NCBI GenBank assembly: GCA_964019425.1
Contig: OZ025795.1
Span: 124,001 to 188,000 of the forward strand
Origin: Flectonema sp. DT1601
Taxonomy: Eukaryota
Direction of reading: 5' to 3'
DNA length: 64,000 bases
Made by a program: the position numbers and the translations under genes. The notes below the pieces were generated by a model. That model saw only the letters and a list, made by a program, of their open reading frames with translations, was not told the origin of the DNA and made no database searches. Positions 21,301 to 49,943 of the stretch are shown here, in pieces (positions within the stretch are counted from its first letter, which is position 1; every line of letters begins with the position of its first letter).

Positions 21301-21545
21301 ATATTTTTTATATGTTGAAATGCGAGTGACTCGTGTACATCTGGACTCTCAAGTAAGTCATTCGGTTGAAGGCTAATCGAATCATTGGTGACTGCGAATA
21401 CTTGATCCATTGACAACAATCCGTCTTTACCTTTAATCTTTATTCGTACTTTCTCTCCGGAGCCGGTTGTAGATTCAATCTTCCCAACTAACCATCCCTG
21501 TTCAGAGTCTGTATGGAGAACCAAAGCCCCAGCAGTTAGGGTCAT
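18390..21545 (-). CDS. Unconventional myosin heavy chain (motor domain plus coiled-coil tail)
   Basis: P-loop GESGAGKT, switch I NDNSSRFGK, ERNFH, switch II LDLFGFE, WIRCIKPN; charged helical tail. Confidence 0.93.
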   Translation of the reverse strand: MTLTAGALVLHTDSEQGWLVGKIESTTGSGEKVRIKIKGKDGLLSMDQVFAVTNDSISLQPNDLLESPDVHESLAFQHIKNIFNSEKYCVSMGEDICIIVNPYSHNIPGDGAIYGEKRMKKLLENNNNYPEAHPWHLAREAYRRLCETNVSSTIIVTGESGAGKTESARAAMKFLTVASESDPTIADRVMAVNCILEVFGNAKTARNDNSSRFGKHTILYFDPTTLSITGSEISTYLLEITRITSHGSSERNFHSFYAFFKAPEKLRNRLLGAGKRPNDFKCLNPGSTNKIGGGINDDDNFKEVTQALLAIGIDEGMQEDLLWRPIAGIVHLLNTEFTKTGSKDDSVSVVDETPVVSAAHLFGISSEKLISLLTTSVITIKGSQVQQRLSITKATAMRDGLAKFLYKSLFAFLVEKINKTLKVENVPRNTPKIGILDLFGFENFKENKFEQFLINYANEKIQSFYNTRMFDDLEQRCRDEGVSIDIPRFDDNSSCLELVEAKRGILRILEDECSLGELQTSDAKFLENLNSNYMLGRQKLNPHFDKPKPSQPRDSFIISHYAGPVMYTVKDAIQKNKSPVRDEMLTCLGKSAMQSILPTYSQAALVSQTFKEDLGLLLDSIRSTETLWIRCIKPNSRKVPKVFEGSLVRNQLHCNGVIPTIRLLQTAPKIQKFEVFLRKYGCLLKNQNSTTPPSSACGQLQQELSLPRGDFQVGISSSVFTTTDILRLLNERVSVLRKQSENVLRKVALGFHSRKHVFNLLIMREQRRIKMERQKEQKKREEELNAVDETRRGLEMVESARRQNVFDTINRTLLLTNQIEEDRNRYANKAHKHFDLFTVHVHKVEAARHGKEQEYERQLKLRQYEEECLMKKHEATHQEIMSTLKQRALRQEQDFKKREERVKKLEADKKATREEKERLAKVEAYRKELKKKEAEAKAIVQRKERDTRKLREVERRLQQEKRRIVVENRFRAVRQKENDLDLDEALLIRDRDASHIHRCVAESQWQMQQKAWEQHEYREASRYLEELEENSIYQSVVHRDTVSGLHKFPLR

Positions 21546-21685
21546 TGTGTTGGTCTGACTTGAGAGAGATGAATATCATAATTATTCGCAGTGACTGTAC
21601 TAACATTTATAGCACTCGGATAATCAGCAAAATGGTGGTGTATTTTTTCATAGAAAAGGTGGAAGCTGTGAGCTGTCACCGATAC

Positions 21686-21728
<43 letters not shown>

Positions 21729-21862
21729 GAAATAAGAACGTTATGAGTGATTGTGAATGTAATTCACAATATAAAAAAAAAGGAAATCTGATTTTTTTGA
21801 AATTCAAGTCAAAAAAAAAACAGTTTTTCTATAGTAGTTTATACATGTAAAAGGAACCAAAT

Positions 21863-22501
21863 TTAGATACCCCCAACAGTAATTGTGTTGTATTCTTCTA
21901 TTCTGTGATAGCTTAACTTAGAAAGCGTTGCAGTCGATGATAACTCAGGGTTCTCAAAATCACCTGGAGGATAATTATATCTACAAATAGCTACTCCCCA
22001 CTGCTCTTCCTTTTTGGGAGCACATTCAAGTCCAAAAGCTGACCAGGGAACTAATAACTCAGCCGCCCAAACACCATCGTTGGATTGAACGATGTATTTA
22101 GACTTCGATGATTCCTTCACACATTCAGACCATTTTATATCACCTTTTAGGAACTTGTCTCTGTTTGGAATCTTTATGTCAGTAATAAGACTGTTTGGTG
22201 ATAAATGAATTTCCCAATATTCTCCTTCAAAACCTTCAGTTGTTCTCGTGTGATGAATAAAGAACTCCGCTACTGATCCTTTTAGGTAGAGTTCTTGTTG
22301 ATCAGCTGTTGCTGTTGTAAATGGTTCTTTCTCACAGAAGTAAGAATACATTAACAATCCCTGTTCTGTTTGCTTTACATAACCATGACCACCTTCATTC
22401 GGACCGATTCCACTTCCAGCCCATTTTTGCATTAATTTCATGGGTTCACAGTCCTTGTAAACCACCGGATGCGCACTTCCAACATCGGGAGATAGCGACA
22501 T
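21863..22501 (-). CDS. Carbohydrate-binding family 9-like (CBM9/DOMON-like) protein
   Basis: GSVAEFFI, YWEIHLSPN, WAAELLVPWSAFG, W..AICRY and final YH motifs resemble bacterial CBM9-like proteins. ATG at 22501. Confidence 0.6.
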   Translation of the reverse strand: MSLSPDVGSAHPVVYKDCEPMKLMQKWAGSGIGPNEGGHGYVKQTEQGLLMYSYFCEKEPFTTATADQQELYLKGSVAEFFIHHTRTTEGFEGEYWEIHLSPNSLITDIKIPNRDKFLKGDIKWSECVKESSKSKYIVQSNDGVWAAELLVPWSAFGLECAPKKEEQWGVAICRYNYPPGDFENPELSSTATLSKLSYHRIEEYNTITVGGI

Positions 22502-22773
22502 TTTCAAAAGCAGCTCTGAAAAACAAAAAAAAAGACTACTGACTGGTAGTTAATATGAACATCTCTTATAACTTTCATGATGAGGACATAATTTCCTATA
22601 ATGTCTCAACAGGTAGGCGACAGTTGAAAAACTATTCGCGATACTTTGTTTCTGTACAGTCTGTATGAAAGAAGGCAATATATTAATATAAACTATCACG
22701 TACACTATTCCGTTGGGTACAAAGCAAACAACTAACGCCAGTACGAAGATAAGCTTGAAAGGGAGTGGAGTGG

Positions 22774-22876
22774 CGCTACCCACATCAACAGAATGCAGCG
22801 AAGACTAGTTTGTTTGATTGCTCAAACCTAGTTTGGGGAGTGCCACAAGCGTATCACAATTAAGATTTCAGTAGCG
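22774..22876 (-). promoter_or_regulatory. SECIS-like element in the 3' UTR of GILT copy 1
   Basis: RNA folds as helix I CGCUACU/GGUAGCG, core GUGAU...UGAU (tandem G.A), 11-nt helix II ACGCUUGUGGC/GCUGCAUUCUGU, and apical arm ACUAG-GUUUGA-GCAA-UCAAAC-AAA-CUAGU. Confidence 0.8.
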
Positions 22877-23213
22877 TAAACACTTTCACTTTCCTATCAA
22901 AGCTGGATAATCATTCGTACTAAACTGCAGTCGGAATACCATTCAATGGAGTGTCCCGATATTAACGGAAAACTCAGCAATTAATATCGATAAACTCATA
23001 GTAAGTAAATAATACATTTTGACAGAACCTATGTGAACGAGCAGCTCAGTCAGCAATGAAAACACAAAACAGGAATCACACGTAAAAAGACCACCTCTTA
23101 TATATTAATGAACTCCGAAAACAAGAGACCTCAGAGTTAATCAAACGAGCGAAGGTACCAAAAGCTAAATTTTTTTTTTTTGCCCATTTCGGCTACGGCA
23201 GCAGTACTACTTT

Positions 23214-23888
23214 TTACAGCTTGCAGCCTTCTGGCTTAGTTCCGTTGTAGTCTCTGCAGATTACCTCCTTTAAAAGGTCAGTCTGCTTCAACACCTTTCC
23301 GTTGACAACGAGGTAAGGCACGTAATCCCTGCCCGGAACCAATGCCGTCTTCTTAGCAGCAGCAGCAGTCAAGGACTTTCCCTTGCTACCATTCATGCAG
23401 GCAGTTACATCAGACGGGTTCAGTCCCGAGATAGTTGCACACTTTTCCATTTGGGAAGTTGAAACCTTACCGTTAGCCTCGAGGCAGTACACGAAAGGCA
23501 TGTACTTCGAAGGGTCATCATTCAGCATGTCCTTCACACAGACTTCAGCCAAGTTTCCGTAACACTCCTCAGGTCCATGCTGACACACATTCTCTCCAGT
23601 GTAGCAGTCAGCAGCAGGGCTCGAGGCCGAAGGACCACAGTGCTTCAACCAGCACTCGAATCCCTGATTTCCTTCACATTCACTGATCTTTACGTAAGCG
23701 TTACCAAATGGAATGAAGTCGAAGTTCATGATGCCGATGAGTCCCGGTGCGGTCAGTGTGGAATTCACTGGTCCCTTCACCGTGGCGTCACATGCGGGTC
23801 AAAGAGCCTCTCCGTAGAAGTCAACGGACACCTTCTCCTGAGCGGAGGCGGTCACGGCGAGCATGGCAACAGCGAGAGCACGGTGCAT
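23214..23888 (-). CDS. GILT: GILT (gamma-interferon-inducible lysosomal thiol reductase) selenoprotein, copy 1, 224 aa; Sec TGA at 23799-23801
   Basis: Signal peptide MHRALAVAMLAVTASA, then VSVDFYGEAL-U-PAC (the CXXC position), FIPFGNA and the GILT signature CQHGPEECYGNLAEVC. The two listed ORFs are in one frame, separated only by this TGA. Confidence 0.9.
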
Positions 23889-24020
23889 TGTTGTAAAGGT
23901 ATTGAAGCTGAGGGGAGTACAATACAAAGAGTAGTAATATAATATACCAGAGATGAGATTGGAATAAATACGAAGAGTTTCCAACAAGTCACCAACTAGA
24001 AATAAAAAGAGACCATCCGA

Positions 24021-24123
24021 TAGCTAAGTACCCACATCCATCTGAATCTCTGGGACTAGTTTGTTTGATTGCTCAAACCTAGTTTAAAAGTGAGAAACAG
24101 ACTTCACAAAAGAGACATCGCTA
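24021..24123 (-). promoter_or_regulatory. SECIS-like element in the 3' UTR of GILT copy 2
   Basis: GUGAA-GUCUGUUUCUC...GAGAUUCAGAU-GGAU: same geometry as copy 1 with a different helix II sequence and an identical apical arm. Confidence 0.75.
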
Positions 24124-24590
24124 ACGGAGGGTGTTGGCCTCATAATATAATCAGGTAGGTGAATTGTGGCACTTGGGTAGTTCATTAACGATGCGAACAA
24201 AAGTAACTCCACAATTCGATTGTAAATACAGTAAGAGATTATTTATTGTGAACAAGAGCTTGCCCATAAGGAAACTTATAGACTTATAAATGCTCCCTCT
24301 CCATTTTAACACTAGTTTGACAAGCACCTTAAAATGAAACAACAAAGAGTCGTTGATTGTTAAACAAAAACACTAAAACATCTTCTTCCTTAACATTATT
24401 TTAGGATAGCATAAACTAACAATCAACTTCTTGAATTAGAACTTACATCAAACTAGTGTTTCAAAACAGAGTAATCATTAGTAGTAACACATTGTGTTGC
24501 TATTCGTGTTATAAAGGTGGTGGGTAATATATAGAATTCAGTAATAATATTGCGGAAAAGGTTCACAAGATTCACACAAAGTTATCTTTA

Positions 24591-25262
24591 CTACTTGCAG
24601 CCTTCTGGCTTAGTGCCCTTGTAGTCATCGCAGACGGTTTTCTTCAAGTCATCCGAGTTCTTCAACACCTTTCCGTTGACAACGAGGTAAGGCACGTAAT
24701 CCCTGCCTGGAACCAATGCCGTCTTCTTAGCAGCAGCAGCAGTCAAGGACTTTCCCTTGCTACCATTCATGCAGGCAGTTACATCAGACGGGTTCAGTCC
24801 CGAGATAGTTGCACACTTTTCCATTTGGGAAGTTGAAACCTTACCGTTGGCCTCGAGGCAGTACACGAAAGGCATGTACTTCGAAGGGTCATCATTCAGC
24901 ATGTCCTTCACACAGACTTCAGCCAAGTTTCCGTAACACTCCTCAGGTCCATGCTGGCACACATTCTCTCCAGTGTAGCAGTCAGCAGCAGGGGTTGAGG
25001 CCGAAGGACCACAGTGCTTCAACCAGCACTTGAAACCTTGTTCAAACTTGCATTCATCAATCTTTACGTAAGCGTTACCAAATGGAATGAAGTCGAAGTC
25101 CATGATGCCGATGAGTCCCGGTGCGGTCAGTGTGGAATTCACTGGTCCCTTCACCGTGGCGTCACATGCGGGTCAAAGAGCCTCTCCGTAGAAGTCAACG
25201 GACACCTTCTCCTGAGCGGAGGCAGTCACGGCGAGCATGGCAACAGCGAGAGCACGGTGCAT
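24591..25262 (-). CDS. GILT: GILT selenoprotein copy 2, 223 aa; Sec TGA at 25173-25175
   Basis: Same signal peptide, GEAL-U-PAC and CQHGPEECYGN as copy 1. Confidence 0.9.
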
Positions 25263-25395
25263 TGTTGTAAAGGTATTGAAGCTGAGGGGAGTACAATACA
25301 AAGAGTAGTAATATAATATACCAGAGATGAGATTGGAATAAACTACGAAGAGTTTCCAACAAGTCACCAACTAGAAATAAAAAGAGACCATCCGA

Positions 25396-25498
25396 TAGCT
25401 AAGTACCCACATCCATCTGAATCTCTAGGACTAGTTTGTTTGATTGCTCAAACCTAGTTTAAAAGTGAGAAACAGACTTCACAAAAGAGACATCGCTA
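25396..25498 (-). promoter_or_regulatory. SECIS-like element in the 3' UTR of GILT copy 3
   Basis: Near-identical to 24021-24123 (part of a duplicated block); about 205 nt downstream of the copy 3 stop. Confidence 0.75.
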
Positions 25499-25702
25499 AC
25501 GGAGGGTGTTGGCCTCATAATATAATCAGGTAGGTGGCTTGTGGTAACATTACTAAGCAGCAGCGGAGAGAGAGCTCACTCAAAGGTAATAATAATCACT
25601 ATTTGAGTATAAACGTGTTTTGGAAAAGATATTAAAGAAAGTCACAAAAAAAGAACATCACATTCACTCGTGGAATTTTGAATTTTTGGGTCAACACAAA
25701 TA

Positions 25703-26374
25703 CTACTTGCAGCCTTCTGGCTTAGTGCCCTTGTAGTCATCGCAGACGGTTTTCTTCAAGTCATCCGAGTTCATTAACACTTTTCCATCAACAACGAGGT
25801 AAGGAACGTAATTCCTGCCCGGAACCAATGCCGTCTTCTTAGCAGCAGCAGCAGTCAAGGACTTTCCCTTGCTGCCATTCATGCAGGCAGTTACATCAGA
25901 CGGGTTCAGTCCCGAGATAGTTGCACACTTTTCCATTTGGGAAGTTGAAACCTTACCGTTGGCCTCGAGGCAGTACACGAAAGGCATGTACTTCGAAGGG
26001 TCATCATTCAGCATGTCCTTCACACAGACTTCAGCCAAGTTTCCGTAACACTCCTCAGGTCCATGCTGGCACACATTCTCTCCAGTGTAGCAGTCAGCAG
26101 CAGGGCTCGAGGCCGAAGGACCACAGTGCTTCAACCAGCACTCGAATCCCTGATCTCCTTCACATTCACTGATCTTTACGTAAGCGTTACCAAATGGAAT
26201 GAAGTCGAAGTCCATGATGCCGATGAGTCCCGGTGCGGTCAGTGTGGCGTTCACTGGTCCCTTCACCGTGGCGTCACATGCGGGTCAAAGAGCCTCTCCG
26301 TAGAAGTTAACGGACACCTTCTCCTGAGCGGAGGCGGTCACGGCGAGCATGGCAACAGCGAGAGCACGGTGCAT
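25703..26374 (-). CDS. GILT: GILT selenoprotein copy 3, 223 aa; Sec TGA at 26285-26287
   Basis: ATG at 26374; GEAL-U-PAC; GILT signature present. Confidence 0.9.
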
Positions 26375-27000
26375 TGTTTGTGTGTTTTATAAGGCTGAGA
26401 AGGAATATTGATTAAAAGTAATTACGAAAGATATGAATATTCAGGGGAAGGATAGCTAACCAAACAACAATCACCAAAACTACTTGTTTAGTATCGCAAA
26501 GTGAAGAAACTAAATAATTAGCGCCACTCAGTCGTTGTTTCAAATATTTTAACTCTCAGAAATTGTCAAGCAGAAAAAAGAATTGAATTGGCCTTATCTT
26601 AAAACTATGCAGAAAATAGTAATATAACACCACCATGAACCAACTTAAACTGATAAAGCTAAAGGAGGTTTACGTGTGCTGCCAACATTCTATTTCTTTC
26701 TTACAATACTTGTTAAATGCAAAGAGAAAGGAAAAAAAAAAGGGAATATAAGACCAACGGCCGCAGAACTCTGAACAAAGAGTTGCGCCAACTGGTAAAA
26801 CATGTGCTTCAGTAATAATTTATCATTTAATAAAAAACACACAAGTGAAATAAATTGAACGGTAGTTAATTCAAACAAACAGTCATCTCACAGAAATCGG
26901 TTCATGTCAGTGGTTAGAGTGACTGATCAACATTCCTTCTTTGAAGGAATACAATTTCAGTGAATAATTGAAAGGTTTGTTGTGTTTGTTTGTATTGACT

Positions 27001-30000
27001 TCATTGAATATTGTGATCAAGTAATGGATACTTACCACCAAGTCTGTAAACACTCAACACCTCAGCCAAGTGAGGAGGGGACACTACTTCATTAGCTTCT
27101 TTACGCTCAGCTTTAGAGAGCAGTTCCATATTTTGTCTGATCGCAGTTTTTATGCCTTCTCTGTTAATCCTTGATAATGGAAACCCATACTGATCAATAG
27201 TCAAATCAATAAGTGTCTTATTTCTAAGACAGCTATTATCTAACGACCCTCCAAGTACTAAACGAAAAGCACTGTGACCCCTCTCATCAATAGCATTATG
27301 ACGAAGAGACAGAGAGAGAAGAGTTGTATTAAATCGCAAAGCCTCAGCTATTTGTTCAGCTCCGAAATTTTCAATTCTGTTGCAAAGCTCTCCAATAGCG
27401 ACAGTCATTATAAGAAATCCGAGGTCTAATTTACGAACTGTTTTATTTATCTTTAAGAACTCAGCAACATACGTAGATCCAACTGAACCAATTCCTGAGG
27501 ACGAAACATCCAACATCTCAAGCTTCATGTCCGTGACTGAAAATAACATTTTCGCACCTTCATCTCCCAGTCTATTACAACCCAAACCTAATGACCTGAG
27601 TCCTGTTGGCTTTCTGAGCATATCACAAATAGAAGGAATTGACTTGATAGTTATTCCATTACCATTTAAGTAAAGAACTTGTAAGTGTTTATTATCAGTC
27701 AATCCTTTCATAAGTATTTCTGTACCCTCATCAAGAAGACCTGTACAGGTTAGATCAAGAACTTTTAAGTGTCGATTTAATGAAATCATTTTTGATAAAT
27801 GAACAGCAGCAAATGGCTTCAGAGGATTTCTCTTCAGCCATAATTGGTTTACGTAGTCATCAGTTTGAAGAGCGTCACACAAAGGTTTAATACCAACGTC
27901 AGTTAAGTGATTACCTGCTATGTACCAAGTTGATACTGATGATGATTTATTTATTACCATGTCAGCTACCCCGTTACCAAGATTATCACCAGCAATGTTA
28001 TTACCCAACAACAAGTGTCTCACTTTACTTTGATTGTCATTTCGTAAGCTGTCAAGCAACGGTTCGATTCCCTTCGGACCGATTACCTGCTTACATAAAT
28101 CAAGACGACCATCACCGCACATGGTTCCTTTTGTAAATGCTATAAAGTCATTCGCTTTTTTAAGTTTATCAGCTGTTTTAATATAATCCAACACAGGTTG
28201 CATCTGAGTACCAGTTGCGATATCAACAGGTTCTGGTTCTGGATGAAGTATCATTTGTGATAGAGGAAGGTCAGATACTAATTGTTGATATTCTTGTTGA
28301 CTTCTCTGTTGATCGATAATGTTCTCCTTCCAGTTTGAGTAGATAATTGATTTCTTTAGATTGTAGTAATCAAGATTGTATTTGGTGTTTAAAATATCTT
28401 TTATTGATTTCACTACTTCATTAAACTTCTTAATCTTATCGTAGGTTGCCTTAGACGGTAATATTGATTCCATGTTACGAACTAACTTGTCACTCGTCAG
28501 TTTCACGAGTTCAGTTTTCTTCGCAGAGTAGGTACGACGAGTCTTCAAACAATGGAGGACACAATCTGACGGACGCTCACTTGTCGATGCGGATATACAT
28601 TTTTGGTAGTCTTCGTACAGCTTGTCAGCAATTAACTGCGACACTGTTTCCAACAACTCTCTGACGACTGGTTGTGAGCGATGGGATTCCTCATCCTGTT
28701 CTTGAACTACATCACAAAGACAGTTATTCTCTTTTTCACGAACATTTACCTTCCTAGAAGTTCCAGTACACGATAATAAACAAAGTCTTTCCATATCCTC
28801 CCAACCACCGTAGTATTGAATTGAATGAAGTAATTTCATTGTAATGTCAAAACGACTTTCTGATGTCGGCTGTTCATTTATAATAGCCCACCACAACCAA
28901 TAGACTGTCTGGTTAGAACGTTCCTGTAGTGTCACGTAGTCAGAATTAGATATTTCTTTTTTCTTAAATGGAGATCTCAATCTCTTTTTTCCAACATTTA
29001 CATACTGACACCATGAAAGAAGTAACAAGTCACTGTCTATTGTCTTTGTATCAACCGAAGGATGACCTCTCATTTCCTTAACGAATTCTCTAATGTCACT
29101 CTGTTGAAAACAGACATGAGGGTCTATAGCAATAGTCTTCCCTTTTGATTTACAAGTTTCCCAGAAAGTTGTTGTGAGTAAGAACTTGTTACAAATACCA
29201 ACAGGAATGAGTGGGAATAAATCATCTTCAGAACCTCTACACTTCATTGTTGATGATAGTTTTATTTGTAAGTCTGGTTCTGGTTGTGACTCCAGTGGAT
29301 TAATAATAACAGAACTATCAAATTGAGTATTGTCAGATACTTGAAGCTGGTCTAACCAGTTTGAGATGTCATCGATGGGCCATTTTCCAATCGCTTTTTT
29401 AAAATGATCACCAGAATGACTTTTAACTAACGGATTTCTAAACACCTGAGAGAGTCTAACAGTCCTATCTGATGGCATGATGGTATCTGTTTCTCCATAA
29501 ATATGAAATGATGGAATCTCAAGATTCATTGAAGTGCTGTGAAGGTCTTTAAAACGATCACGAGAATCTCTACATTCTCCACCAGAAATACAAATATAAC
29601 ATTTTGGAGTAAAGTACTTAGCCTTGTCTGAACCAGATGCCTGTAGTGAAGCCATTATAGCGGCTATACAGGCACCTTGACTGAATCCTATCACACATTG
29701 AAACGGACCGTTAATGTTAAAATAATTATTAAGATATTCAATAGATTCATCTAACCCTTCATAAATAAGATCACCTGACTCACTAGTTGTAGAGTTGTAC
29801 CAATGTCTTCCTGTGTTTGCAATCATTTGAACGTTTCCTTCTGAAAATGAACTTTTGTGAGGAGCGTCTGCGAACACGAATTCGACGTTGCTGTTTTTAC
29901 TGATTCCAGTCAGGGCTTGTTTTGCTGCTCTTGAGAAGCTTCTTCCATTTTGACGAAGTCCATGTAACACCAGTACTCTGATCAAACCAGTTTTTGTACT

Positions 30001-30639
30001 AACAGATTTCTCAGGAACGACGTTACTCTGTTTCGGAGATGACTTTGCCTCCACAGCAGAGATATACCTCATTTCAGATTGGGTTGATTCCCTTCCAAGT
30101 AATTCGTTGCGGAGAGGATCACGTTTAAATTTCTCGAGGATGCCACGCATTCGAATCGAGTCCTTAAAACATTTGTTAACACGAGTTCCAACAGAACTCC
30201 CAACACCACCATGATGACTTATTATTGAAGTAAATCCAACAATAGCTCTTCTAACATCAAACATGATCTCAGAATTACACAAAGCTATGTAAATAAAACA
30301 AATATAAGTCCACGGAAGTGATGAAATTGAAGCTCCGATATCGTCAGCTGCTGAATTTGATATTTTCGAAATGACTTCGTCGAATTCGAATCTTCTTTCT
30401 TTATTGATGACGCGGTGTATCTGACTTAGTAGTATTATTGAGGCTACCTTACCTTCGATACTACCTGACTCATTCCAGTCTTTCCATGTATTATCTTGTA
30501 TGTAGTTATTAAAAGTACTTCTCATATAATCAATTGTTTCAACTCGACTTAATCTTCTTTGTGAATCAACACATCCCCACCATAGTTTACTTCTCCATTG
30601 GAGATCGTCTCCGAACCAAAAATTTAAAACTTCGTTCAT
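27001..30639 (-). CDS. Multidomain protein: DUF924-like, FSH1-type serine hydrolase and RNI-like LRRs
   Basis: EVLNFWFG...RDPLRNELLGRESTQSE (DUF924-like); LVLHGLRQNG, GFSQG, HIYGETD and HSGDH (FSH1); C-terminal LxxLxLxxNxIxxxG repeats. Confidence 0.8.
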   Translation of the reverse strand: MNEVLNFWFGDDLQWRSKLWWGCVDSQRRLSRVETIDYMRSTFNNYIQDNTWKDWNESGSIEGKVASIILLSQIHRVINKERRFEFDEVISKISNSAADDIGASISSLPWTYICFIYIALCNSEIMFDVRRAIVGFTSIISHHGGVGSSVGTRVNKCFKDSIRMRGILEKFKRDPLRNELLGRESTQSEMRYISAVEAKSSPKQSNVVPEKSVSTKTGLIRVLVLHGLRQNGRSFSRAAKQALTGISKNSNVEFVFADAPHKSSFSEGNVQMIANTGRHWYNSTTSESGDLIYEGLDESIEYLNNYFNINGPFQCVIGFSQGACIAAIMASLQASGSDKAKYFTPKCYICISGGECRDSRDRFKDLHSTSMNLEIPSFHIYGETDTIMPSDRTVRLSQVFRNPLVKSHSGDHFKKAIGKWPIDDISNWLDQLQVSDNTQFDSSVIINPLESQPEPDLQIKLSSTMKCRGSEDDLFPLIPVGICNKFLLTTTFWETCKSKGKTIAIDPHVCFQQSDIREFVKEMRGHPSVDTKTIDSDLLLLSWCQYVNVGKKRLRSPFKKKEISNSDYVTLQERSNQTVYWLWWAIINEQPTSESRFDITMKLLHSIQYYGGWEDMERLCLLSCTGTSRKVNVREKENNCLCDVVQEQDEESHRSQPVVRELLETVSQLIADKLYEDYQKCISASTSERPSDCVLHCLKTRRTYSAKKTELVKLTSDKLVRNMESILPSKATYDKIKKFNEVVKSIKDILNTKYNLDYYNLKKSIIYSNWKENIIDQQRSQQEYQQLVSDLPLSQMILHPEPEPVDIATGTQMQPVLDYIKTADKLKKANDFIAFTKGTMCGDGRLDLCKQVIGPKGIEPLLDSLRNDNQSKVRHLLLGNNIAGDNLGNGVADMVINKSSSVSTWYIAGNHLTDVGIKPLCDALQTDDYVNQLWLKRNPLKPFAAVHLSKMISLNRHLKVLDLTCTGLLDEGTEILMKGLTDNKHLQVLYLNGNGITIKSIPSICDMLRKPTGLRSLGLGCNRLGDEGAKMLFSVTDMKLEMLDVSSSGIGSVGSTYVAEFLKINKTVRKLDLGFLIMTVAIGELCNRIENFGAEQIAEALRFNTTLLSLSLRHNAIDERGHSAFRLVLGGSLDNSCLRNKTLIDLTIDQYGFPLSRINREGIKTAIRQNMELLSKAERKEANEVVSPPHLAEVLSVYRLGGKYPLLDHNIQ

Positions 30640-30755
30640 AATGGTTGTTGTGTATTTGGATTTTTACTGAAAAAGGAAACTGATGATTGAAAGTAACTAA
30701 CTAAGTAAGGCTGATCGTTCAGCTAGTAATAACTACACCGTGTAAATGAATTAAC

Positions 30756-33562
30756 TTATGGCAGTACAGTAGTTATGACATATCCTAACATTCCTAAGGC
30801 TTGTCTGAATTTTGATAACTCACATTGCTCTCTAAATAAAATAAATAACTGAAGGAAGTCACTCGAACTCTTCTCAAGACCAGGTAAGTGTATTGAGACC
30901 GTCGGATGAGATAATGAAGTTGGTAACGGACACCAATCTGAACAAGAAAGAACACCTGGACGTTCCCACAGATGGCCGACTACAGAACACCTAAGAGAAA
31001 GAGACCAACAACGACTAATAAAATGTTTCCCTTTAGCAGAATCATAACAATGCGGTGCAGATATGTATCCGCTGTCTCGTAGCCTACGCAAAGCCTCATC
31101 GATACACTCAGTTGGAAGAGTTATTTTATTAATTTGTGAACACTGCTCTTCGTCATCCAGAGCCGACTCAAACATACCACAATATGATAAGACCCCAATA
31201 AGCCTTGGGCCTACTAGAATATCATAAGAGGTTTCTATCAAATTAGCAGCAGCCAAGAAACTAATCTCCTGAACTACATATTGCCTTGTGTTGTTCGCGA
31301 ATAAGTCTGTAGGAAAACCAAAAGAATTCGAAGGTATCTGTACATCGTTGGTTCTTATTAAACTACACTGTTCTAGAATGTGTAATAATTCACCAGGGAT
31401 GACCCTATCAAGATCCTCTTTAGAAGTATTTTCTTTATAAAGTGTTAACAGAATGAGTGATCCAAGAAAATCTGATGAACGTTGAGCCTCAACATATCCA
31501 ACATTAGATACCTGAGTATAGGTACTGCATTCTCTAAACAACGAGAAGGAAGCGTATTGATCAAGTCGCAGACAAGAACAAGCTAATCTCCAATCACTGT
31601 AAGTCAGAAAGTCTAAATCTCTTCTAAAATGGTTATATAATTCATCAGAATAATTAATAACACATTCAGGTATCGACAGCACTGTGTGAGACTGAATAAC
31701 TGTGAATCTCTGATACTGTTGTGGTGGGCTGATCCATATTCGATTGTTTGCAACTTGTAAAAAGCATCTACGAACTATCCTAATGTGTGCTTCATTTGTA
31801 AATACACAAACAGTAAAATCATTACATTGAATGTTACTGTGAGGAACTTTACACAGAACATAGTCAGATGAAATTGTGTGCGCTCGTACTGTTTGTTCAC
31901 CAAATTTAATACTAACTCCTCGGAGGCTGCAAAAATTCGAACCCTCGAACCTGATATGTTCACCTGCTGAACCAGTCACTGGTGCTACCAATCGAATACA
32001 TGGCTTTCTGAGTATTAAATCATTAATATCACTCTCTAAAGGATGTCCTGTAAGTCTCGCATACGCATCTGATAAAAAGACTGTAAACAACGTATCAACT
32101 TTATCCACAAGAGGTGCACTACTTGGTAACATACAATGAAACAATTCATTTCCAAATAGAGATGCCGCTAATCTCACGATAGCATCGTGAAACTCTGGTT
32201 CAATTATGAGAGTTTTATCTGATTTTTGTTTACTCGGATGTGAGGGATAAAGTAATGAAGATGCTCTTATTACTTTTTGAAGTACGACAGATGTAACTAT
32301 TTGGGGATAGATACAAATATACTTTGCGAAAGAAGCGAAACTTTCACTTCCCATAACACCCCTCCAATGACTACCATGAGAATCAATACCTTCGATTGTA
32401 TGTTGAGATTGCCAGCCAAGTTCTACTGCATCTTTAGTAACAAAACACTGAAAGAATTTTTTTAAAATTCCATTTCTCATATACATGTAGTCGTCAAGAT
32501 CTGTATTTTGCAGCCAGTCTGGATCAAAATTTTCCTTTGCTCCACTCGGATCAGACAACACATCGCTGTAGTAATGGTTATTTTTGTTTGTATTGAAATA
32601 AGCAATCTCCTCTCAACGATAATAAAAACAACGTACCTGTAATATCGAAGCAGGTTATCATCAATTAATTTTGACAACACTGCAATAGGAGTACGAGCGA
32701 ATGCAGACCTGTTTAAGTCATCCGAAAATGAAAGCAACAGTATAACAAACGATCTAAAACAAAGAGATGGCGAACACAATATTTCGATAAGTCTTGACGT
32801 TGCCGTTGACGGTTCCAATTTCGTATCATGCAAGAATGTTGATAATGATGCAGGAGAAAGTTCATCGCATTTAAAGACGTGAAGAGCTGCTTTGTATATT
32901 CTTAGAAGAGAAGTTCCAACTACTTCGTGTTTTTTTATTTCATTCACGAAATCAGAATGAGCTTTGAGAATGTTAGCTTTAGTTGTAAGACAACTATTAA
33001 TATCTCCGTGAAGTACTGAAGACTTGCGTGTTTCTCTCCTGGAACCTGTTGGTGAAACAACAGTTGCTCGTCGTGATGAAGTTCCTAATGAAGTTGCTAA
33101 TGATCTCCTTGTTCTGGGAAAGACTCTCATCGGTTCTGAATCAAGTATCACACTGGTGTCTGTTGATGCTTGACTTGTTCGAGAACCACTTCGGCGTTGT
33201 TGAGATGGTCGTCTGATATCTTCATTAAATAAAGATCTACGAGGAAATACTAACTCACCGTCACTTTCTGAGAAATTACTTTCCGTCCTCCGTCTTACTC
33301 GATACCCAACTGGTGGTTTCGGTTCCATCAATGACCCTCTTGGTGATCTCTTAGTACCAGTTGACGGACTGAGTATGAAACCATCTGTAGTAACTCTTTG
33401 CTTTGTTTCTCTTAGCGCTCCTACATAAGGTGACATTGTCAGTTTTGGTCTTGACAGTGATGTATTTATCTTTGCTTTTGCATGAATCGCATTTCGTAGT
33501 AATCTAAAACTAGATTCAGCCTTCGTCAAAGGTTTTATAATATCGAGTGAATCGTCAATCAT
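30756..33562 (-). CDS. Hypothetical protein with possible IPT/TIG domain; exons 33562-32637 and 32565-30756
   Basis: A 71-nt GTACGT...TACAG intron (32636-32566) joins the two ORFs in frame. PCIRLVAPVTGSAGEHIRFEGSNF...IKFG...CKVP resembles an IPT domain. Confidence 0.7.
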
Positions 33563-33851
33563 TGTGATTGTTGACTTGAGTTAGTAGTTGGCTTCGGTGA
33601 TGTTTAAAACATTATTTACACAAAGCTGTTATCTTCACCTGTGTGATAATATAATAACATGTGATAAATATACTTTACTCAACTTTTTATTATTATTCAT
33701 GCTGGCATTTTGCATTGAAGATTACAATACATCCCGAAAGACGAGAGGAATTTTTTGAGTTTTGTTTTTTTTTTTGTTTCACAAAAAAAAAAAAAAGTAA
33801 CGCGATCGAGGGCAATTTAATCAACTTGTGTGAAAGGATTGCTGGTAAATA

Positions 33852-33937
33852 ATTGCACGTTTCAGTGGAATGTAGCGGAAGACTAGTTTGTTTGATCTAG
33901 TTTTTTAAAATGATACATCCACGTCACGGATTGCAAT
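33852..33937 (-). promoter_or_regulatory. SECIS-like element in the 3' UTR of GILT copy 4
   Basis: Helix I AUUGCA/UGCAAU, core GUGAC...UGAA, helix II GUGGAUGUAUC/GCUACAUUCCAC, and a shortened apical arm ACUAG-AUCAAACAA-ACUAGU. Confidence 0.8.
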
Positions 33938-34220
33938 AAACAGTTGCCAACCATCTTTTCTTGAAGTCAATACATTGCGTCGTCTTCTGAAGCAGTACTT
34001 TACTGCTTTTGCGGCATTTAGAAATTGGTGAAAATCAAAAAGACTTTTAACTTTTAATAATCAAGTAAGGTGAGATTGTGGCGTAATACGATTAGTTTAT
34101 GTTGTAATTGAAAGAAAATAAAATTCAGAAAAAAATAAGCTGCCAAAAAAAGTTCGTACGCAGCAGCTACGAAATCTAGAAACAACTAACTGCGGGAATT
34201 GGAGGTCTTTTTTATGCGAT

Positions 34221-34895
34221 TTATAACTTGCAGCCCTTTGGCTTAGTTCCATTATAGTCTCTACAGACTGTTTCCTTCAAGAGGTCGGTTTCCTTCAGCA
34301 CCTTTCCGTTGACAACCAGGTAAGGCACGTAATCCCTGCCCGGAACCAATGCCGTCTTCTTAGCAGCAACAGCAGTCAAGGTTCTTCCCTTTTTGTCATT
34401 CATGCAGGCAGTTACATCAGACGGGTTCAGTCCCGAGATAGTTGCACACTTTTCCATTTGGGAAGTTGAAACCTTACCGTTGGCCTCGAGGCAGTACACG
34501 AAAGGCATGTACTTCGAAGGGTCATCATTCAGCATGTCCTTCACACAGACTTCAGCCAAGTTTCCGTAACACTCCTCAGGTCCATGCTGACACACATTCT
34601 CTCCAGTGTAGCAGTCATCAGCAGGGCTCGAGGCCGAAGGACCGCAGTGCTTCAACCAGCACTCGAATCCCTGATCTCCTTCACATTCATTGATCTTTAC
34701 GTAAGCGTTACCAAATGGAATGAAGTCGAAGTTCATGATGCCGATGAGACCCGGTGCGGTCAGTGTGGAATTCACTGGTCCCCTCACCGTGGCGTCACAT
34801 GCGGGTCAAAGAGACTCTCCGTAGAAGTCAACGGACACCTTCTCCTGAGCGGAGGCGGTCACGGCGAGCATAGCAACAAAGAGAGCACGGTGCAT
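34221..34895 (-). CDS. GILT: GILT selenoprotein copy 4, 224 aa; Sec TGA at 34806-34808
   Basis: ATG at 34895; FYGESL-U-PAC; GILT signature present. Confidence 0.9.
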
Positions 34896-35427
34896 TGTTG
34901 TGGAGGTGTTGAAGCTGAAAAGGGAAAACCAATCAAGTAGAACCATATTAGCAAACGAGTTCCAAAATACTTGTCCAAGTCTAACAAGTAGTGCTTCTTT
35001 CGTTTTTTTTTTTGTTCACTTTCATTCGTTTGTGGGGCTGTTTTTCAGCACAAATGGATTCCGCTTTACGAAGATTTCAAGGGCGTTTCCTTGCTGAATA
35101 ATCGCACGAAATTGTATCCGAAACAAGATTGAAAAAAAGATGACAACAGCGACAAGACATTCACGTAGAAACCATTCAGACAAGCCTTATATTTTGTTGA
35201 TCGCAGCTAGTTTTACTGGCGCACAGGGAAATAGATAACATGACATAATAAATAACGGTTCTTAATCTGAATAGTTTCTTCTCCGACTTAGTCGGTACAA
35301 AAAATAAAACTCAAAACAGCCTTCATCAACATCAAGAGTTTTATTATAATCAGAGTACAAGCCCCTCAAATTTGAAGGCATCGTATCATATATGATCTAG
35401 TAGGAAATCACAACGGATATGTGTCGT

Positions 35428-35700
35428 CTAACCAAATCGAGCTTCAACTGTGTATCCAAATCTTAAGACGCCATCTACTGTTGGAATATCTTTTAATTGC
35501 ATACCTGGATTTTGATAATCTGCATCATATGACCAGCAGTAGCAGTCTTTACCAACATCCAGAGTTAGTTTTCTAACTTTAAAAAAAACGTACAAGTCTG
35601 ACACCGTTTTCTCTCTGTTTTTTATTTCAACTTCGATTCCTTCATTCCCCAAAGCAAGTCCTCCAAATCCCCCTTGTTTGAAGACTGCAGTTACAGACAT
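35428..35700 (-). CDS. Small hypothetical protein (90 aa)
   Basis: ATG-initiated ORF on the coding strand with globular-looking composition. No family recognised. Confidence 0.5.
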   Translation of the reverse strand: MSVTAVFKQGGFGGLALGNEGIEVEIKNREKTVSDLYVFFKVRKLTLDVGKDCYCWSYDADYQNPGMQLKDIPTVDGVLRFGYTVEARFG

Positions 35701-36145
35701 TTTGTACTTTGGATGCCTAAAAACAAAATTATTGTTAACTAATGTTTATATAAGAACCTTCTCTTCCATTAAGCCGAAAAGACTAACGAAAAGAGTAGCT
35801 AGAAAGTGTTAGTTAGTTGGTTAGCAAAAATACAAAAACTGATGACTGTCCGCATCAGCAAGGACCCAATCACGAAGATTGTAGATTGTAGTTTTATAGC
35901 TTCGGTTGGAAGTGATCGACTCCCAGTGGCAAAAAAAAAAAACCAGTTGTTAGTTAGAGACCCGAAAAAGTTAATCAGTACATGTTTTCAGTAGGCGATA
36001 TGTAATTAAACAACGTACATAAATATTGTAGATGTGTTTTGCGACTAGGTTAGTACGGGATCACAAAAGCACTGATTACTACAATAAAACAATGAAAGAA
36101 ATTACAGGTAAAGAGCTATCGAAAGAGACAAAAAGCAGTAAATTC

Positions 36146-41362: not shown

Positions 41363-41521
41363 TGAATTTTAAGTGCTGGCGAAAGTGTGTAATAATAACT
41401 GAAAGTAAATTTTACTCTGAGGATTGCAGTCATAATTCTTGTCCTCATACGTGAACCATTCACTGCTCTTGCCTACATCAAATTAGAGACAGGGATGGGA
41501 CAAACGACGGTCAGAATGGAA

Positions 41522-41627
41522 AGCAACGCTCAGACACGAAAGCTACGTCAACAAATAGCATTCAGGTGACTCACGGTCTGCAGAACTATGAGATCGGCTT
41601 TCTATCTCGTCAATCATTCGCGTTGCT
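41522..41627 (-). ncRNA. C/D-box snoRNA family 1 (7 copies: 41522, 42565, 43261, 43665, 44705, 45401, 46441); target unassigned
   Basis: 8-bp terminal stem AGCAACGC/GCGUUGCU, C-like box AUGAUUG and terminal CUGA. Confidence 0.65.
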
Positions 41628-41680
41628 ATTTTCCTCCTTTTTTCCAACTCCCACAAAACACAGAAAAGAAGTCGCACACA

Positions 41681-41776
41681 CAGAGCTCAGACAGCAGGAC
41701 GGTAGTTGCAGTTTGGTTTCATGAGTAAAGGTTGGAAGCCATCAAATATTATGATAAGGTGATCATCTTAGCTCTG
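41681..41776 (-). ncRNA. C/D-box snoRNA family 2 (7 copies), guide for the LSU motif ACAGCAGGACGGU
   Basis: Terminal stem CAGAGC/GCUCUG, C box AUGAUCA, and D box CUGA preceded by a 13-nt antisense to conserved LSU rRNA. Confidence 0.8.
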
Positions 41777-41831
41777 AATGACGACAACTCAAATCAACGA
41801 GAAGAAGAAGAAGAAGAGAGAACGACAAGGA

Positions 41832-41945
41832 AGCACGAAGTCAGCAAGTTTTAAACCTTTTTTCAAGTCACGAGAAATCAGAAGCAAGACTGGCGTTGGA
41901 AAGGTTGTGTGTGTTATCCATCATGAGAATCATGTGAGAAGTGCT
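41832..41945 (-). ncRNA. C/D-box snoRNA family 3 (5 copies); D' guide predicts the equivalent of yeast 25S Am1133
   Basis: Two CUGA boxes. The internal one follows an antisense to AAGCAAGACUGGCG (compare LSU AAGCAGAACUGGCG); the +5 rule gives the A after AAGC. Confidence 0.7.
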
Positions 41946-42010
41946 GGTATTCCAAATGCATGAAAGGAATCGAAAAAGAACAACGCACTCACAACAGCAG
42001 GGCAACAAAA

Positions 42011-42103
42011 GGATCAGCTTGAAGGCCGAAATTACTTGAAATCAATAAAAAGGATTTTCATACGAACGAGATCTATTGGGTAATTTCTATATCATCATGA
42101 GAT
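42011..42103 (-). ncRNA. C/D-box snoRNA family 4 (3 copies), D' guide to the SSU motif ACGAACGAGAUC
   Basis: Perfect C box AUGAUGA, D' AUGA with a 12-nt SSU-like antisense, and terminal CUGA. Confidence 0.75.
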
Positions 42104-42133
42104 ATTGTGGAATCAATAACAACACAGAGAGGC

Positions 42134-42188
42134 GGATCTCAGGCAAAGTCAGATGAGCGAATGGCAAACATCTTCCGAGGTTGTCTGG
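42134..42188 (-). ncRNA. Possible single-hairpin AGA-box RNA (3 copies); target unassigned
   Basis: Stems CAGACAA/UUGCCUG and AGAUG/CAUCU followed by AGA-UCC. The pocket-to-box spacing is shorter than canonical. Confidence 0.35.
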
Positions 42189-42296
42189 ACCCACAAAACA
42201 GCAGGGGATTCGACTCGGCTATCCTTCAACAACAGGCAGGCAATACGATGAATGGAACAACGACCTCACAACAGCGGGCAACAAAAGGATGAAGAC

Positions 42297-42396
42297 CAGA
42301 CAATCAGACAGCCCGTCGTTGTTTGTCACCAGATCTGCACCCAAAGGGAGCAGGTAAGGCATCAGCTTGCAATACGACTTTCTCATCATGTGTCTG
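42297..42396 (-). ncRNA. C/D-box snoRNA family 5 (5 copies including 2 variants); predicts the equivalent of yeast 18S Cm1639 / human Cm1703
   Basis: Terminal stem CAGACA/UGUCUG, C box AUGAUGA, and a D-box guide antisense to GCCCGUCGUUGUUU (kinetoplastid-like SSU 3' region). The +5 rule hits the known decoding-site Cm. Confidence 0.85.
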
Positions 42397-42424
42397 AAAT
42401 TACTTCAAAGGAGATACATCAAGA

Positions 42425-42491
42425 GATTCTTGTACACGTGGGTGTGCGTTAATTCCATATCCGGAAGGAACGCGACCGTATTGCGTACTTT
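42425..42491 (-). ncRNA. Single-hairpin AGA-box pseudouridylation guide (3 copies); predicted target LSU UGGGUU-Psi-A-GACCGU
   Basis: Lower stem GUACGC/GUGUAC, upper stem GCGUU..UUCCG/UGGAA..AACGC, pocket ACGGUC + ACCCA, 15 nt from pocket top to AGA. Confidence 0.75.
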
Positions 42492-43154
42492 CTAAAAAGA
42501 GATTGGGAACTTCTTCAACAACACACAAAAAGGATCAGCAGGGAAGCAGGAACACGACAGACAAAGCAACGCTCAGACACGAAAGCTACGTCAACAAATA
42601 GCATTCAGGTGACTCACGGTCTGCAGAACTATGAGATCGGCTTTCTATCTCGTCAATCATTCGCGTTGCTATTTTCCTCCTTTTTTCCAACTCCCACAAA
42701 AACGCAGAAAAGATGTCGCACACACAGAGCTCAGACAGCAGGACGGTAGTTGCAGTTTGGTTTCATGAGTAAAGGTTGGAAGCCATCAAATATTATGATA
42801 AGGTGATCATCTTCGCTCTGAATGACGACAACTCAAATCAACGAGAAGAAGAAGAAGAGAACGACAAGGAAGCACGAAGTCAGCAAGTTTTAAACCTTTT
42901 TTCAAGTCACGAGAAATCAGAAGCAAGACTGGCGTTGGAAAGGTTGTGTGTGTTATCCATCATGTGAATCATGTGAAGGAAGTGAATGTTCGAAGACCAG
43001 ACAATCAGACAGCCCGTCGTTGTTTGTCACCAGATCTGCACCCAAAAGGAGCAGGTAAGGCATCAGCTTGCAATACGACTTTTTCATAACGTGTCTGAAA
43101 TGAATACATAAAGTCAGGTGTGAGGCCTCCCACAATACATAGCACAGCAAAGCT

Positions 43155-43237
43155 CAAATCAGACAAAGTAGTAGTAAGAAGTTATCGTCAAATATAATCC
43201 GACATATGCTTGTTATGATATGTGATCATCATATTAC
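43155..43237 (-). ncRNA. C/D-box snoRNA family 6 (3 copies: about 43155, 43559, 45295); predicts the equivalent of yeast 18S Am28
   Basis: C box AUGAUGA, D' CGGA preceded by an 11-nt antisense to SSU CAUAUGCUUGU (+5 rule gives A28), and terminal CUGA. Confidence 0.8.
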
Positions 43238-48300: not shown

Positions 48301-48495
48301 TTTAATAAGGTAAGTTGTGAGATAAACCTGCTAAATAAAAGATTATAATATCTGATGACACTGTAGACTGTTAACTAATGATTTAAATCCAGGTGATCCT
48401 TCCTAATGACAAAATAAAAAGGAACCCTTAATGGAATTCATCCCTTGAGTAACCGCACAAATGACGGTGCGAGCAACAGAATAGTTGAAAGCATT

Positions 48496-49674: not shown

Positions 49675-49943
49675 TTTAAGGAGTAAGAGATGTAATCTAA
49701 TAGAGGAGAAATAAATTGTTGACCAGTCTTCTAAACCACAGTTAGGCTAATCTACTTAATTGATAAGCCTCATGTATCTGTTTAAAGTTTTATATTTATG
49801 CGGAGTAACCTGATAGAAGTGAAGAAGTATTTCCCTGCTAAGACTAAATAACAACAATTGCCTAATAACCTGCCTTAGACATTAACTTGGAAGCTCTCCA
49901 TAAAAAGAGAGATTTCTGACTTGTAAAATTGATAAATCCAAAT

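What the first reader, a model, noticed from the sequence alone, without database searches (positions are those of the whole stretch)
22774..33937. Non-canonical GUGA-type SECIS with a long apical arm, conserved by covariation in four otherwise unrelated 3' UTRs
Seen: 205-470 nt downstream of each GILT stop (22774-22876, 24021-24123, 25396-25498, 33852-33937) lies the same fold: helix I, a GUGAN...NGAN tandem G.A core, exactly 11 nt of helix II, A(C/U)U plus pyrimidines, then an ACUAG/CUAGU arm carrying an invariant AUCAAACAAACUAGUC. In three copies the arm is capped by GUUUGA-GCAA-UCAAAC. Helix II has three different sequences that all pair (ACGCUUGUGGC/GCUGCAUUCUGU; GUCUGUUUCUC/GAGAUUCAGAU; GUGGAUGUAUC/GCUACAUUCCAC). 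Copies 2 and 3 are one duplicated block, so there are three independent versions. Known: eukaryotic SECIS elements are usually AUGA, helix II of 11-12 bp, unpaired AA, then GA, and GUGA variants exist. Inference: this is a lineage-specific SECIS subtype lacking AA at the canonical position and with an enlarged conserved apical domain, which standard searches may miss and which may bind a dedicated factor.
Basis: partly seen in the sequence, partly recalled or inferred. Interest (0 to 1): 0.9.

Follow-up and report, generated by a model that had tools for sequence, protein, structure and literature searches.

The report
Long-capped SECIS behind diplonemid GILT selenoproteins
Four copies of a thiol-reductase (GILT) gene in a marine diplonemid protist carry a UGA 'stop' exactly at the catalytic cysteine, and each is followed by the same predicted RNA hairpin, which likely tells the ribosome to insert selenocysteine although its top is too long and its adenines too far out to match the published SECIS search patterns.

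Summary
Four minus-strand GILT paralogues have TGA at the first Cys of the CxxC site (U-P-A-C). Each has GUGAN, an 11-nt arm, a 35-42 nt apex with an invariant 16-mer, a complementary arm and NGAN, 220-483 nt after its stop. Helix II pairs in 37 of 42 cells and 6 of 11 pairs change on both sides. All 8 database relatives in the same diplonemid clade start after the site; sister paralogues have Cys. It is very likely the SECIS (0.8). It lies outside published limits: the first AA is 16-18 nt from the core (rule 10-13), the apex exceeds 30 nt, and my re-implementation of the four SECISearch1 patterns misses 4 of 4 copies. Corrections: the AA is displaced, not absent. The copies are homologous, giving 2-3 versions, not independent ones. 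GUGA cores, long mini-stems and Sec-GILT are already published. No orthologous UTR, poly(A) site or second selenoprotein gene could be examined, so 'lineage-specific subtype' and 'dedicated factor' are untested. The scan held no look-alike. New variant of a known kind; interest 0.5.

The parts
23214..23888 (-). GILT paralogue g1, 224 aa, signal-peptide-like N-terminus, TGA at codon 30 (23799-23801) in EAL-U-PAC, stop TAA
   Evidence: (PF03227, E 5e-21)
24591..25262 (-). GILT paralogue g2, 223 aa, TGA at 25173-25175, stop TAG
25703..26374 (-). GILT paralogue g3, 223 aa, TGA at 26285-26287, stop TAG
34221..34895 (-). GILT paralogue g4, 224 aa, TGA at 34806-34808 (ESL-U-PAC), stop TAA
   Evidence: (PF03227, E 9.2e-21)
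22774..22876 (-). Element c1 behind g1: GUGAU at 22857, 11-nt arm, 42-nt apex, 3' UGAU at 22784-22787; core 356 nt after the stop
24021..24123 (-). Element c2 behind g2: GUGAA at 24107, 40-nt apex, 3' GGAU at 24036-24039; core 483 nt after the stop, 3' core 147 nt before the g1 ATG
25396..25498 (-). Element c3 behind g3: GUGAA at 25482, near-identical to c2 (shared 282-nt block); core 220 nt after the stop
33852..33937 (-). Element c4 behind g4: GUGAC at 33927, 35-nt apex without the GUUUGA-GCAA cap, 3' UGAA at 33861-33864; core 293 nt after the stop
22803..22818 (-). Invariant AUCAAACAAACUAGUC (also 24054-24069, 25429-25444, 33881-33896); holds the 3' strand of the ACUAG/CUAGU stem, predicted pair probability 0.86-0.97 in c1, c2, c4
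23889..24170 (-). 282-nt block duplicated at 25263-25544 (98.6%); holds c2/c3 and the pyrimidine tract + AG that is the likely trans-splice acceptor of the next GILT gene

Best explanation
The hairpin is likely the SECIS element that recodes the in-frame UGA of four diplonemid GILT genes as selenocysteine, in a type II-like form whose top half is predicted to be unusually extended. Shown: the TGA sits at the first Cys of the GILT CxxC site in 4 of 4 genes; one copy of the element follows each gene; its GUGA/GA core brackets an 11-pair helix kept through sequence change. Inferred from established SECIS biology: the GA/GA tandem forms a kink-turn bound by SBP2, and eEFSec brings Sec-tRNA to the UGA 805-1068 nt upstream, giving a secreted or lysosomal UxxC disulfide reductase. 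What differs: A-C/U-U and a pyrimidine run stand where the AAR normally stands, the AA run is 5-7 nt further out at the foot of a 5-pair ACUAG/CUAGU stem, and the apex carries a conserved A-rich 16-mer. My favoured structural reading, inferred and untested, is that the pyrimidine-rich internal loop (ACUCCCC/CUUC, ACUUUU/CCCA, AUUUU/CUUCC) stacks as non-canonical pairs and presents the displaced AA, or the unpaired AAA of the 16-mer, to the normal apical contact.
For: TGA aligns with the Cys of mouse GILT 6nwx. In the 69-row tree (quick tree, not the finished careful one) the window genes sit in a 15-row clade (SH-aLRT 99); all 8 rows of it that are not from this window (D. ambulator 2, D. japonicum 3, F. 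neradi 1, Logan 2) begin at a Met after the site, as expected if an in-frame stop precedes it; 4 of 4 full-length neighbouring paralogues (F. neradi, R. euleeides, two ENA) have CPFC/CPYC; 44 of 54 rows outside the clade have Cys there. TGA is a real stop here (4 of 15 long ORFs end in it; TGG used 120 times), so a recoding signal is needed. The element follows 4 of 4 genes but precedes only 2 of 4, and it is the only block shared by otherwise unalignable downstream regions while the coding regions are 92-96% identical. Helix II: 88% of cells paired, 6 of 11 pairs with changes on both sides, covariation 0.68 against 0.03-0.26 when slid; 0 of 500 shuffles reach the score; RNAalifold finds the helix unprompted; own-arm shuffles P 0.008, 0.008, 0.0006. 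The default SECISearch1 pattern fits 4 of 4 copies, helix I included, once the AA rule is dropped and the loop is allowed to 45 nt; no published pattern hits anywhere in the four downstream regions. Diplonemids have selenophosphate synthetase, SelT-like and SelW-related genes, and a family annotated as Sec synthase in 3 of 4 species listed (PMC10161547 supplement rows).
Against: No experiment and no RNA coverage of any copy, so it is not shown to lie in the mature mRNA; c2 and c3 end 127-128 nt before the next likely splice acceptor. The precise core-to-AAR distance is described as a conserved feature, and AAR mutations block Sec insertion in mammals (PMC2761289, PMC2792357); this element breaks that rule. 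Only 4 sequences and 2-3 related versions support the covariation, and relatedness inflates the shuffle test. A core-plus-helix pattern without the AA rule is unspecific (67 hits in 128 kb of both strands). c1's helix II is marginal in ViennaRNA. The truncated relatives are indirect evidence: their DNA was not seen. SBP2, eEFSec and tRNA-Sec were not examined in this organism.
Confidence: 0.8

Rival explanations
1. The element is an mRNA-processing or stability signal (for example a kink-turn bound by an L7Ae-family protein, or a signal tied to trans-splicing and polyadenylation), and the true SECIS is elsewhere or unrecognisable.
For: c2 and c3 travel in one 282-nt block with the next gene's acceptor. 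A pyrimidine-rich AG lies 29, 39, 39 and 35 nt after the core (16, 15, 15, 12 pyrimidines of 20); background rates are 7% at 15 or more and 31% at 12 or more. Diplonemid genes are co-transcribed and trans-spliced (PMC10161547).
Against: None of the other genes among the 27 ORFs listed has the element. It is absent upstream of g3 and g4. The RUGA/11 pairs/NGAN geometry is exactly SECIS geometry. One stop-to-acceptor gap in the window is only 89 nt, so a poly(A) site can lie closer to an acceptor than the 127 nt left after c2/c3.
Confidence: 0.08
2. The working SECIS is a canonical-pattern hairpin inside the coding region (AUGAA, 12 nt, AA, short stem, AGAA; core at 23396, 24770, 25882).
For: It matches the default SECISearch1 pattern as published in 3 of 4 genes (3 of 7 hits in the window), upper stem -13.9 to -15.9 kcal/mol.
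Against: Broken in g4 (-5.1 kcal/mol), which keeps the TGA. The Met-Asn that supplies AUGAA is absent in P0004, P0005 and P0009 of the same clade. Its repeat in three genes is coding-sequence duplication.
Confidence: 0.04
3. The TGA is a true stop: the genes are pseudogenes or yield an N-terminally short protein from Met54, and the hairpin is a relic or chance fold.
For: Database entries, including those for this window, are the 170-171 aa products from Met54. Folding z-scores of the whole element are modest.
Against: The stop falls on the catalytic Cys; codons 1-53 are conserved among paralogues, with GC3 0.65-0.70, no lower than the 0.57-0.59 of the rest; three named species and Logan entries show the same truncation; a Met54 product would lack signal peptide and active site.
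Confidence: 0.03
4. It is a small RNA gene (box C/D or single-hairpin H/ACA-like snoRNA) or a relic mobile-element fragment lying in the spacers.
For: Single hairpin of snoRNA size with a G.A tandem and an internal loop; a 32-nt stretch is identical between unalignable spacers.
Against: No RUGAUGA box C in any copy, no consistently placed CUGA or terminal AGA/ACA; the would-be guide pocket differs between copies; no Rfam match; strict one-to-one placement behind UGA genes.
Confidence: 0.04

Closest known systems
Eukaryotic type II SECIS (UGAN/KGAW quartet, helix 2, AAR bulge, helix 3; PMC2647825, PMC2761289, PMC3753652)
   Same: Helix I, RUGAN/NGAN core, 11-nt helix II, third stem in the apex, downstream of a UGA gene within 3 kb.
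   Different: A-C/U-U at the AAR position; AA 16-18 nt from the core instead of 10-13; apex 35-42 nt instead of 8-30; 3-nt bulge plus a fourth stem in 3 of 4 copies.
Ostreococcus and Chlamydomonas GUGA-type SECIS with long mini-stem; Dictyostelium SECIS with very long mini-stem and organism-wide sequence conservation (Lobanov et al. 2007, PMC2375036)
   Same: G before the quartet, long apical stem, primary-sequence conservation beyond the core.
   Different: Those keep AA(A) 10-13 nt from the core and 15-39 nt from AA to the 3' GA; here 16-18 and 41-46 nt. Their conservation spans unrelated genes; here only one paralogue family was seen.
Kinetoplastid SECIS of SelK, SelT, SelTryp (Lobanov et al. 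2006, PMC1557815)
   Same: Sister lineage; SelT elements were atypical and partly missed by SECISearch.
   Different: They were screened for unpaired AA/AG/CC and searched with a 3-17 nt apical loop; figures were not visible to me, so I could not compare shapes directly.
Asgard archaeal eukaryote-like SECIS (PMC11227280, PMC4989117)
   Same: GUGA_GA cores and apical A runs shifted by 1-2 nt (G[U/G]AAA, AGAAA) are described.
   Different: Shorter stems and loops; shift here is 5-7 nt.
GILT family (PF03227; mouse 6nwx) and the rare algal Sec-GILT (PMC7539508)
   Same: CxxC/UxxC site, CQHG..EC signature; Sec-GILT is listed among the least widespread algal selenoproteins.
   Different: Not found reported for Euglenozoa in my searches; four paralogues in one locus; a Cys-rich insert between the site and CQHG that mouse GILT lacks.

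Membership tests
Eukaryotic SECIS | In-frame UGA at a Cys-equivalent position in the upstream gene | tested here: met
   4 of 4 genes; Cys in 6nwx and in 44 of 54 rows outside the clade
Eukaryotic SECIS | UGAN/KGAW quartet preceded by A or G | tested here: met
   GUGAN with UGAU, GGAU, GGAU, UGAA in 4 of 4; consensus from PMC2647825
Eukaryotic SECIS | Helix II of 10-13 nt above the core | tested here: met
   11 nt; 9, 9, 9, 10 of 11 paired; 6 of 11 pairs with changes on both sides
Eukaryotic SECIS | Helix I below an internal loop | tested here: met
   8-pair helix I found under the pattern's tolerances in 4 of 4; in the MFE folds of all four
Eukaryotic SECIS (canonical type I/II) | Unpaired AA/AR/CC directly after helix II, 10-13 nt from the core | tested here: not met
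   A-C/U-U there; first AA 16-18 nt out
Eukaryotic SECIS (canonical type I/II) | Apex between the helix II strands 8-30 nt (SECISearch3 filter) | tested here: not met
   42, 40, 40, 35 nt; filter read in PMC3753652 supplement S4. SECISearch3 itself was not run.
Eukaryotic SECIS | Match to Rfam SECIS models | tested here: not met
   No match at gathering score in the window; none at E<=10 in 21500-35500 or 22700-22950
Eukaryotic SECIS | Lies in the mature 3' UTR | tested here: inconclusive
   220-483 nt after the stop, within the D. papillatum median of about 800 nt; no contig covers it
Eukaryotic SECIS | Binds SBP2 and drives UGA readthrough | not testable with these tools
   needs binding and reporter assays
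Eukaryotic SECIS | Organism encodes tRNA-Sec, eEFSec, SBP2 | not testable with these tools
   No genome held; no tRNA in the window; only relatives' SPS, SelT-like, SelW-related and Sec-synthase rows seen
Box C/D or H/ACA-like snoRNA | Box C RUGAUGA with box D CUGA, or terminal AGA/ACA with a conserved pocket | tested here: not met
   pocket sequences differ
GILT (PF03227) | Profile match above cut-off, CxxC site, CQHG signature | tested here: met
   75 bits against cut-off 22.4 for g1 and g4 (2 of the 4 scanned); g2, g3 are 93% identical to g1

The most novel reading that the evidence does not exclude
Diplonemids use their own SECIS form across the selenoproteome: the universal core-to-AAR ruler is broken, and a sequence-conserved apical domain is read by a changed eEFSec or a lineage-specific partner. 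Their selenoproteins are therefore invisible to current SECIS searches, and GILT gained Sec in a diplonemid paralogue clade together with this element.
Probability: 0.3. Interest if true: 0.75.

Novelty: new variant of a known kind. Interest (0 to 1): 0.5.

Why it matters
The fixed distance from the SECIS core to the apical AAR is one of very few rules shared by eukaryotic SECIS elements, and what the AAR does is not fully settled. A natural element that shifts the AA by 5-7 nt and lengthens the apex beyond 30 nt, in two natural forms (with and without the cap), is a ready test of that rule. It would also give a search handle on the selenoproteins of diplonemids, an abundant marine group for which my searches found no selenoproteome paper, and it corrects gene models: all 8 relatives in this clade are stored without their active site.

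Tried and rejected
No whole genome is held, so no genome-wide scan. The one metagenome scan returned 1 locus from 114 pattern matches, a Cys-type GILT (L001, 37% identity) with no match to the model; this is a weak negative control from another organism. Viral contigs: 0 matches to the element pattern, and 0 of 29 candidates confirmed for the protein. Two sequencing runs held small shares (0.15, 0.07); their contigs cover GILT coding and proximal downstream pieces but no copy of the element, which is no evidence either way. The search of 50%-identity representatives gave 1962 GILT-like proteins without names or DNA and was not used further. No other convincing UGA redox gene was seen among the candidate frames in the window. 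One search used a mis-registered structure string (upper helix off by one) and is superseded. The product of chance terms (about 1e-4 per version) assumes independence that the copies lack, so I do not rely on it. I looked for a statement on SBP2 in kinetoplastids and found none. GILT is not named in the SECISearch3 supplement file searched (1 of 2 files). Earlier-finding look-ups: nothing for this genome or by sequence. No structure prediction or complex job was run.
Full report
SETTING. The window is eukaryotic: 27 listed long ORFs lie on the minus strand, as expected for co-transcribed, trans-spliced diplonemid genes (PMC10161547, passages). The closest named relative of the genes in question is a Flectonema neradi protein (89% identical, same 90% cluster), followed by Diplonema ambulator and D. 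japonicum (56-64%). I call the source a diplonemid close to F. neradi. No genome is held for it.

THE GENES. Four paralogues (23214-23888, 24591-25262, 25703-26374, 34221-34895; minus strand) read as 223-224 aa with one in-frame TGA at codon 30. g1 and g4, the two scanned, match Pfam GILT at 75 bits. The TGA aligns with the first Cys of the CxxC site of mouse GILT 6nwx. TGA is an ordinary stop in this organism: 4 of 15 long ORFs end in it and TGG is used 120 times. In a quick tree of 69 rows (careful search unfinished) the four genes lie in a 15-row clade with support 99. Of these rows, 7 are the window's own; all other 8 begin at a Met after the site. Four neighbouring paralogues (F. neradi, Rhynchopus euleeides, two ENA records) are full length with CPFC or CPYC, and 44 of 54 rows outside the clade have Cys at the site; the other 10 lack that region, among them D. 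ambulator P0016 and Artemidia motanka P0027. Clade-wide truncation is what gene callers produce at an in-frame stop; this is inference, since I did not see those genes' DNA. Sec-GILT is already listed for algae (PMC7539508, passage; its supplement could not be read).

THE ELEMENT. Cores lie 356, 483, 220 and 293 nt after the stops and 805-1068 nt after the TGA. The coding regions differ at 29-54 of about 670 nt, whereas the downstream regions do not align except at the element and at one 282-nt block shared by copies 2 and 3. The invariant 16-mer occurs exactly four times in the window. On a sequence-only alignment RNAalifold predicts helix II with 6 double-sided changes. For the 11-pair helix, 37 of 42 cells pair, covariation is 0.68 against 0.03-0.26 for slid registers, and 0 of 500 shuffles reach it; on the stricter count of pairs with double changes 20 of 500 do. 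Random intergenic 11/12-mers reach 9 of 11 pairs in 2.7% of trials. The ACUAG/CUAGU stem has pair probability 0.86-0.97 in c1, c2 and c4; being invariant, it has no covariation support.

LIMITS OF THAT EVIDENCE. There are four sequences and at most three versions, and they are homologous: c1 and c4 share 8 of 12 nt in the 3' arm and cross-pair 10 of 11; c2/c3 against c1 or c4 cross-pair only 4-6 of 11. Whole-element z-scores are -0.8 to -1.9. With wide flanks c1 prefers another fold in ViennaRNA, which does not model kink-turns (own knowledge). A core-plus-helices pattern with a long loop and no AA rule gives 67 hits on both strands of the window, so the case rests on placement and conservation, not on the fold alone.

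HOW IT DEPARTS FROM THE RULES. I re-implemented the four SECISearch1 patterns from PMC3753652 supplement S1. As published they miss 4 of 4 copies, and dropping only the AA rule is not enough; the default pattern fits 4 of 4, with helix I, once AA is dropped and the loop may reach 45 nt. No pattern hits anywhere in the four downstream regions. The SECISearch3 filter rejects apices over 30 nt (supplement S4); these are 42, 40, 40 and 35. I did not run SECISearch3. Rfam gives nothing. The first AA lies 16-18 nt after UGAN and 41-46 nt before the 3' GA; Lobanov 2007 used 10-13 and 15-39 (PMC2375036, passages). The same paper shows that G before the quartet and long mini-stems are standard in Ostreococcus, and that Dictyostelium elements share primary sequence; sponges also use GUGA (PMC3473315, passages). 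Asgard elements show A runs shifted by 1-2 nt (PMC11227280, passages). So GUGA and a long stem are not new; the 5-7 nt shift of the AA with an apex above 30 nt is what I did not find in print (searches; open-access library only).

MECHANISM. Shown: gene, codon position, placement, conserved pairing. Inferred: kink-turn at the GA/GA tandem, SBP2 binding, Sec insertion (PMC2761289, PMC2792357, PMC13059024, passages). Those papers describe the core-to-AAR distance as precise and AAR mutations as blocking Sec insertion, which is why the shift matters and why confidence is not higher. That eEFSec's C-terminal domain touches the AAR in the ribosome structure is recalled, not read here. Both sides of the internal loop are pyrimidine-rich in all versions, so stacking as non-canonical pairs is plausible but untested. 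AUCAAACAAA is partly paired in c1-c3 and a plain loop in c4, yet unchanged in sequence; this fits recognition by sequence, but also recent shared descent or a short conversion tract, and the coding regions do show patchwork exchange. Diplonemids carry Sec-pathway genes according to PMC10161547 supplement rows; its Additional file 1, which covers UTRs and structural RNAs, could not be read and may bear on poly(A) spacing and tRNA-Sec.

IS IT IN THE mRNA? Not shown. No contig of the two runs covers a copy. c2 and c3 end 127-128 nt before the next likely acceptor. One gene pair in the window has only 89 nt from stop to likely acceptor, and D. papillatum 3' UTRs have a median near 800 nt, so inclusion is plausible. 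A pyrimidine-rich AG 29-39 nt after each core keeps a processing-signal reading alive at low odds.

RIVALS. Processing or stability element 0.08; coding-region canonical hairpin 0.04 (present in g1-g3, broken in g4); small RNA or relic 0.04; pseudogenes 0.03.

OTHER PAPERS SEEN. PMC1557815: passages and part 2 of the results section. PMC4989117, PMC7595633, PMC2746813: passages. PMC2647825: part 1 of 2 of the text. PMC3753652: passages and supplement parts 1, 3, 4 of 72.

VERDICT. Observation confirmed; very likely a real SECIS (0.8) behind unannotated Sec-GILT genes; a new variant of a known kind, not a member of canonical type I/II by the AA and apex rules. Whether it is a diplonemid-wide subtype is open (0.3). 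Interest 0.5.

Noticed in passing
window 23396, 24770, 25882 (minus strand, inside GILT coding regions): A hairpin matching the default SECISearch1 pattern as published in g1-g3, broken in g4; likely chance.
   Followed up: yes
29-39 nt downstream of each element's 3' core: A pyrimidine-rich stretch ending in AG at a similar distance in all versions (16, 15, 15, 12 of 20 pyrimidines); background 7-31%.
   Followed up: partly
window 23214-26374 and 34221-34895: Differences among the GILT paralogues fall in blocks (codons 68-90, 167-176, 188-216), a patchwork typical of gene conversion. One contig of run X2 joins a g1-like 3' coding end to the g2 downstream region.
   Followed up: partly
P0016, P0025-P0029, P0033, P0041 (homolog search): Further GILT records outside the clade, among them D. 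ambulator and Artemidia motanka, start after the active site; some may be unannotated Sec-GILT genes.
   Followed up: no
window 35845-35927: An intergenic stretch matched by contigs of both runs at higher depth (7 and 20), whose loose ends resemble the window sequence upstream; no Rfam match of note. Possibly a decayed multi-copy element.
   Followed up: partly
window 27001-30639 (minus): A 1212-aa ORF with DUF924, FSH1 serine hydrolase and leucine-rich repeat matches in one chain, lying between the GILT genes.
   Followed up: no
window about 41500-52300: An 11.5-kb gap without long ORFs holds several repeated blocks (same hits recur at 1-2 kb spacing).
   Followed up: no
window 32477-33562 / 30756-32486 and 60868-61329 / 54395-60871: Two pairs of same-strand ORFs overlap by 10 and 4 nt; each pair may be one gene split by an intron or frameshift.
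   Followed up: no
GILT residues about 66-96: A Cys-rich insert (C..CW...CG) between the active site and CQHG, absent from mouse GILT, shared with protist relatives.
   Followed up: no
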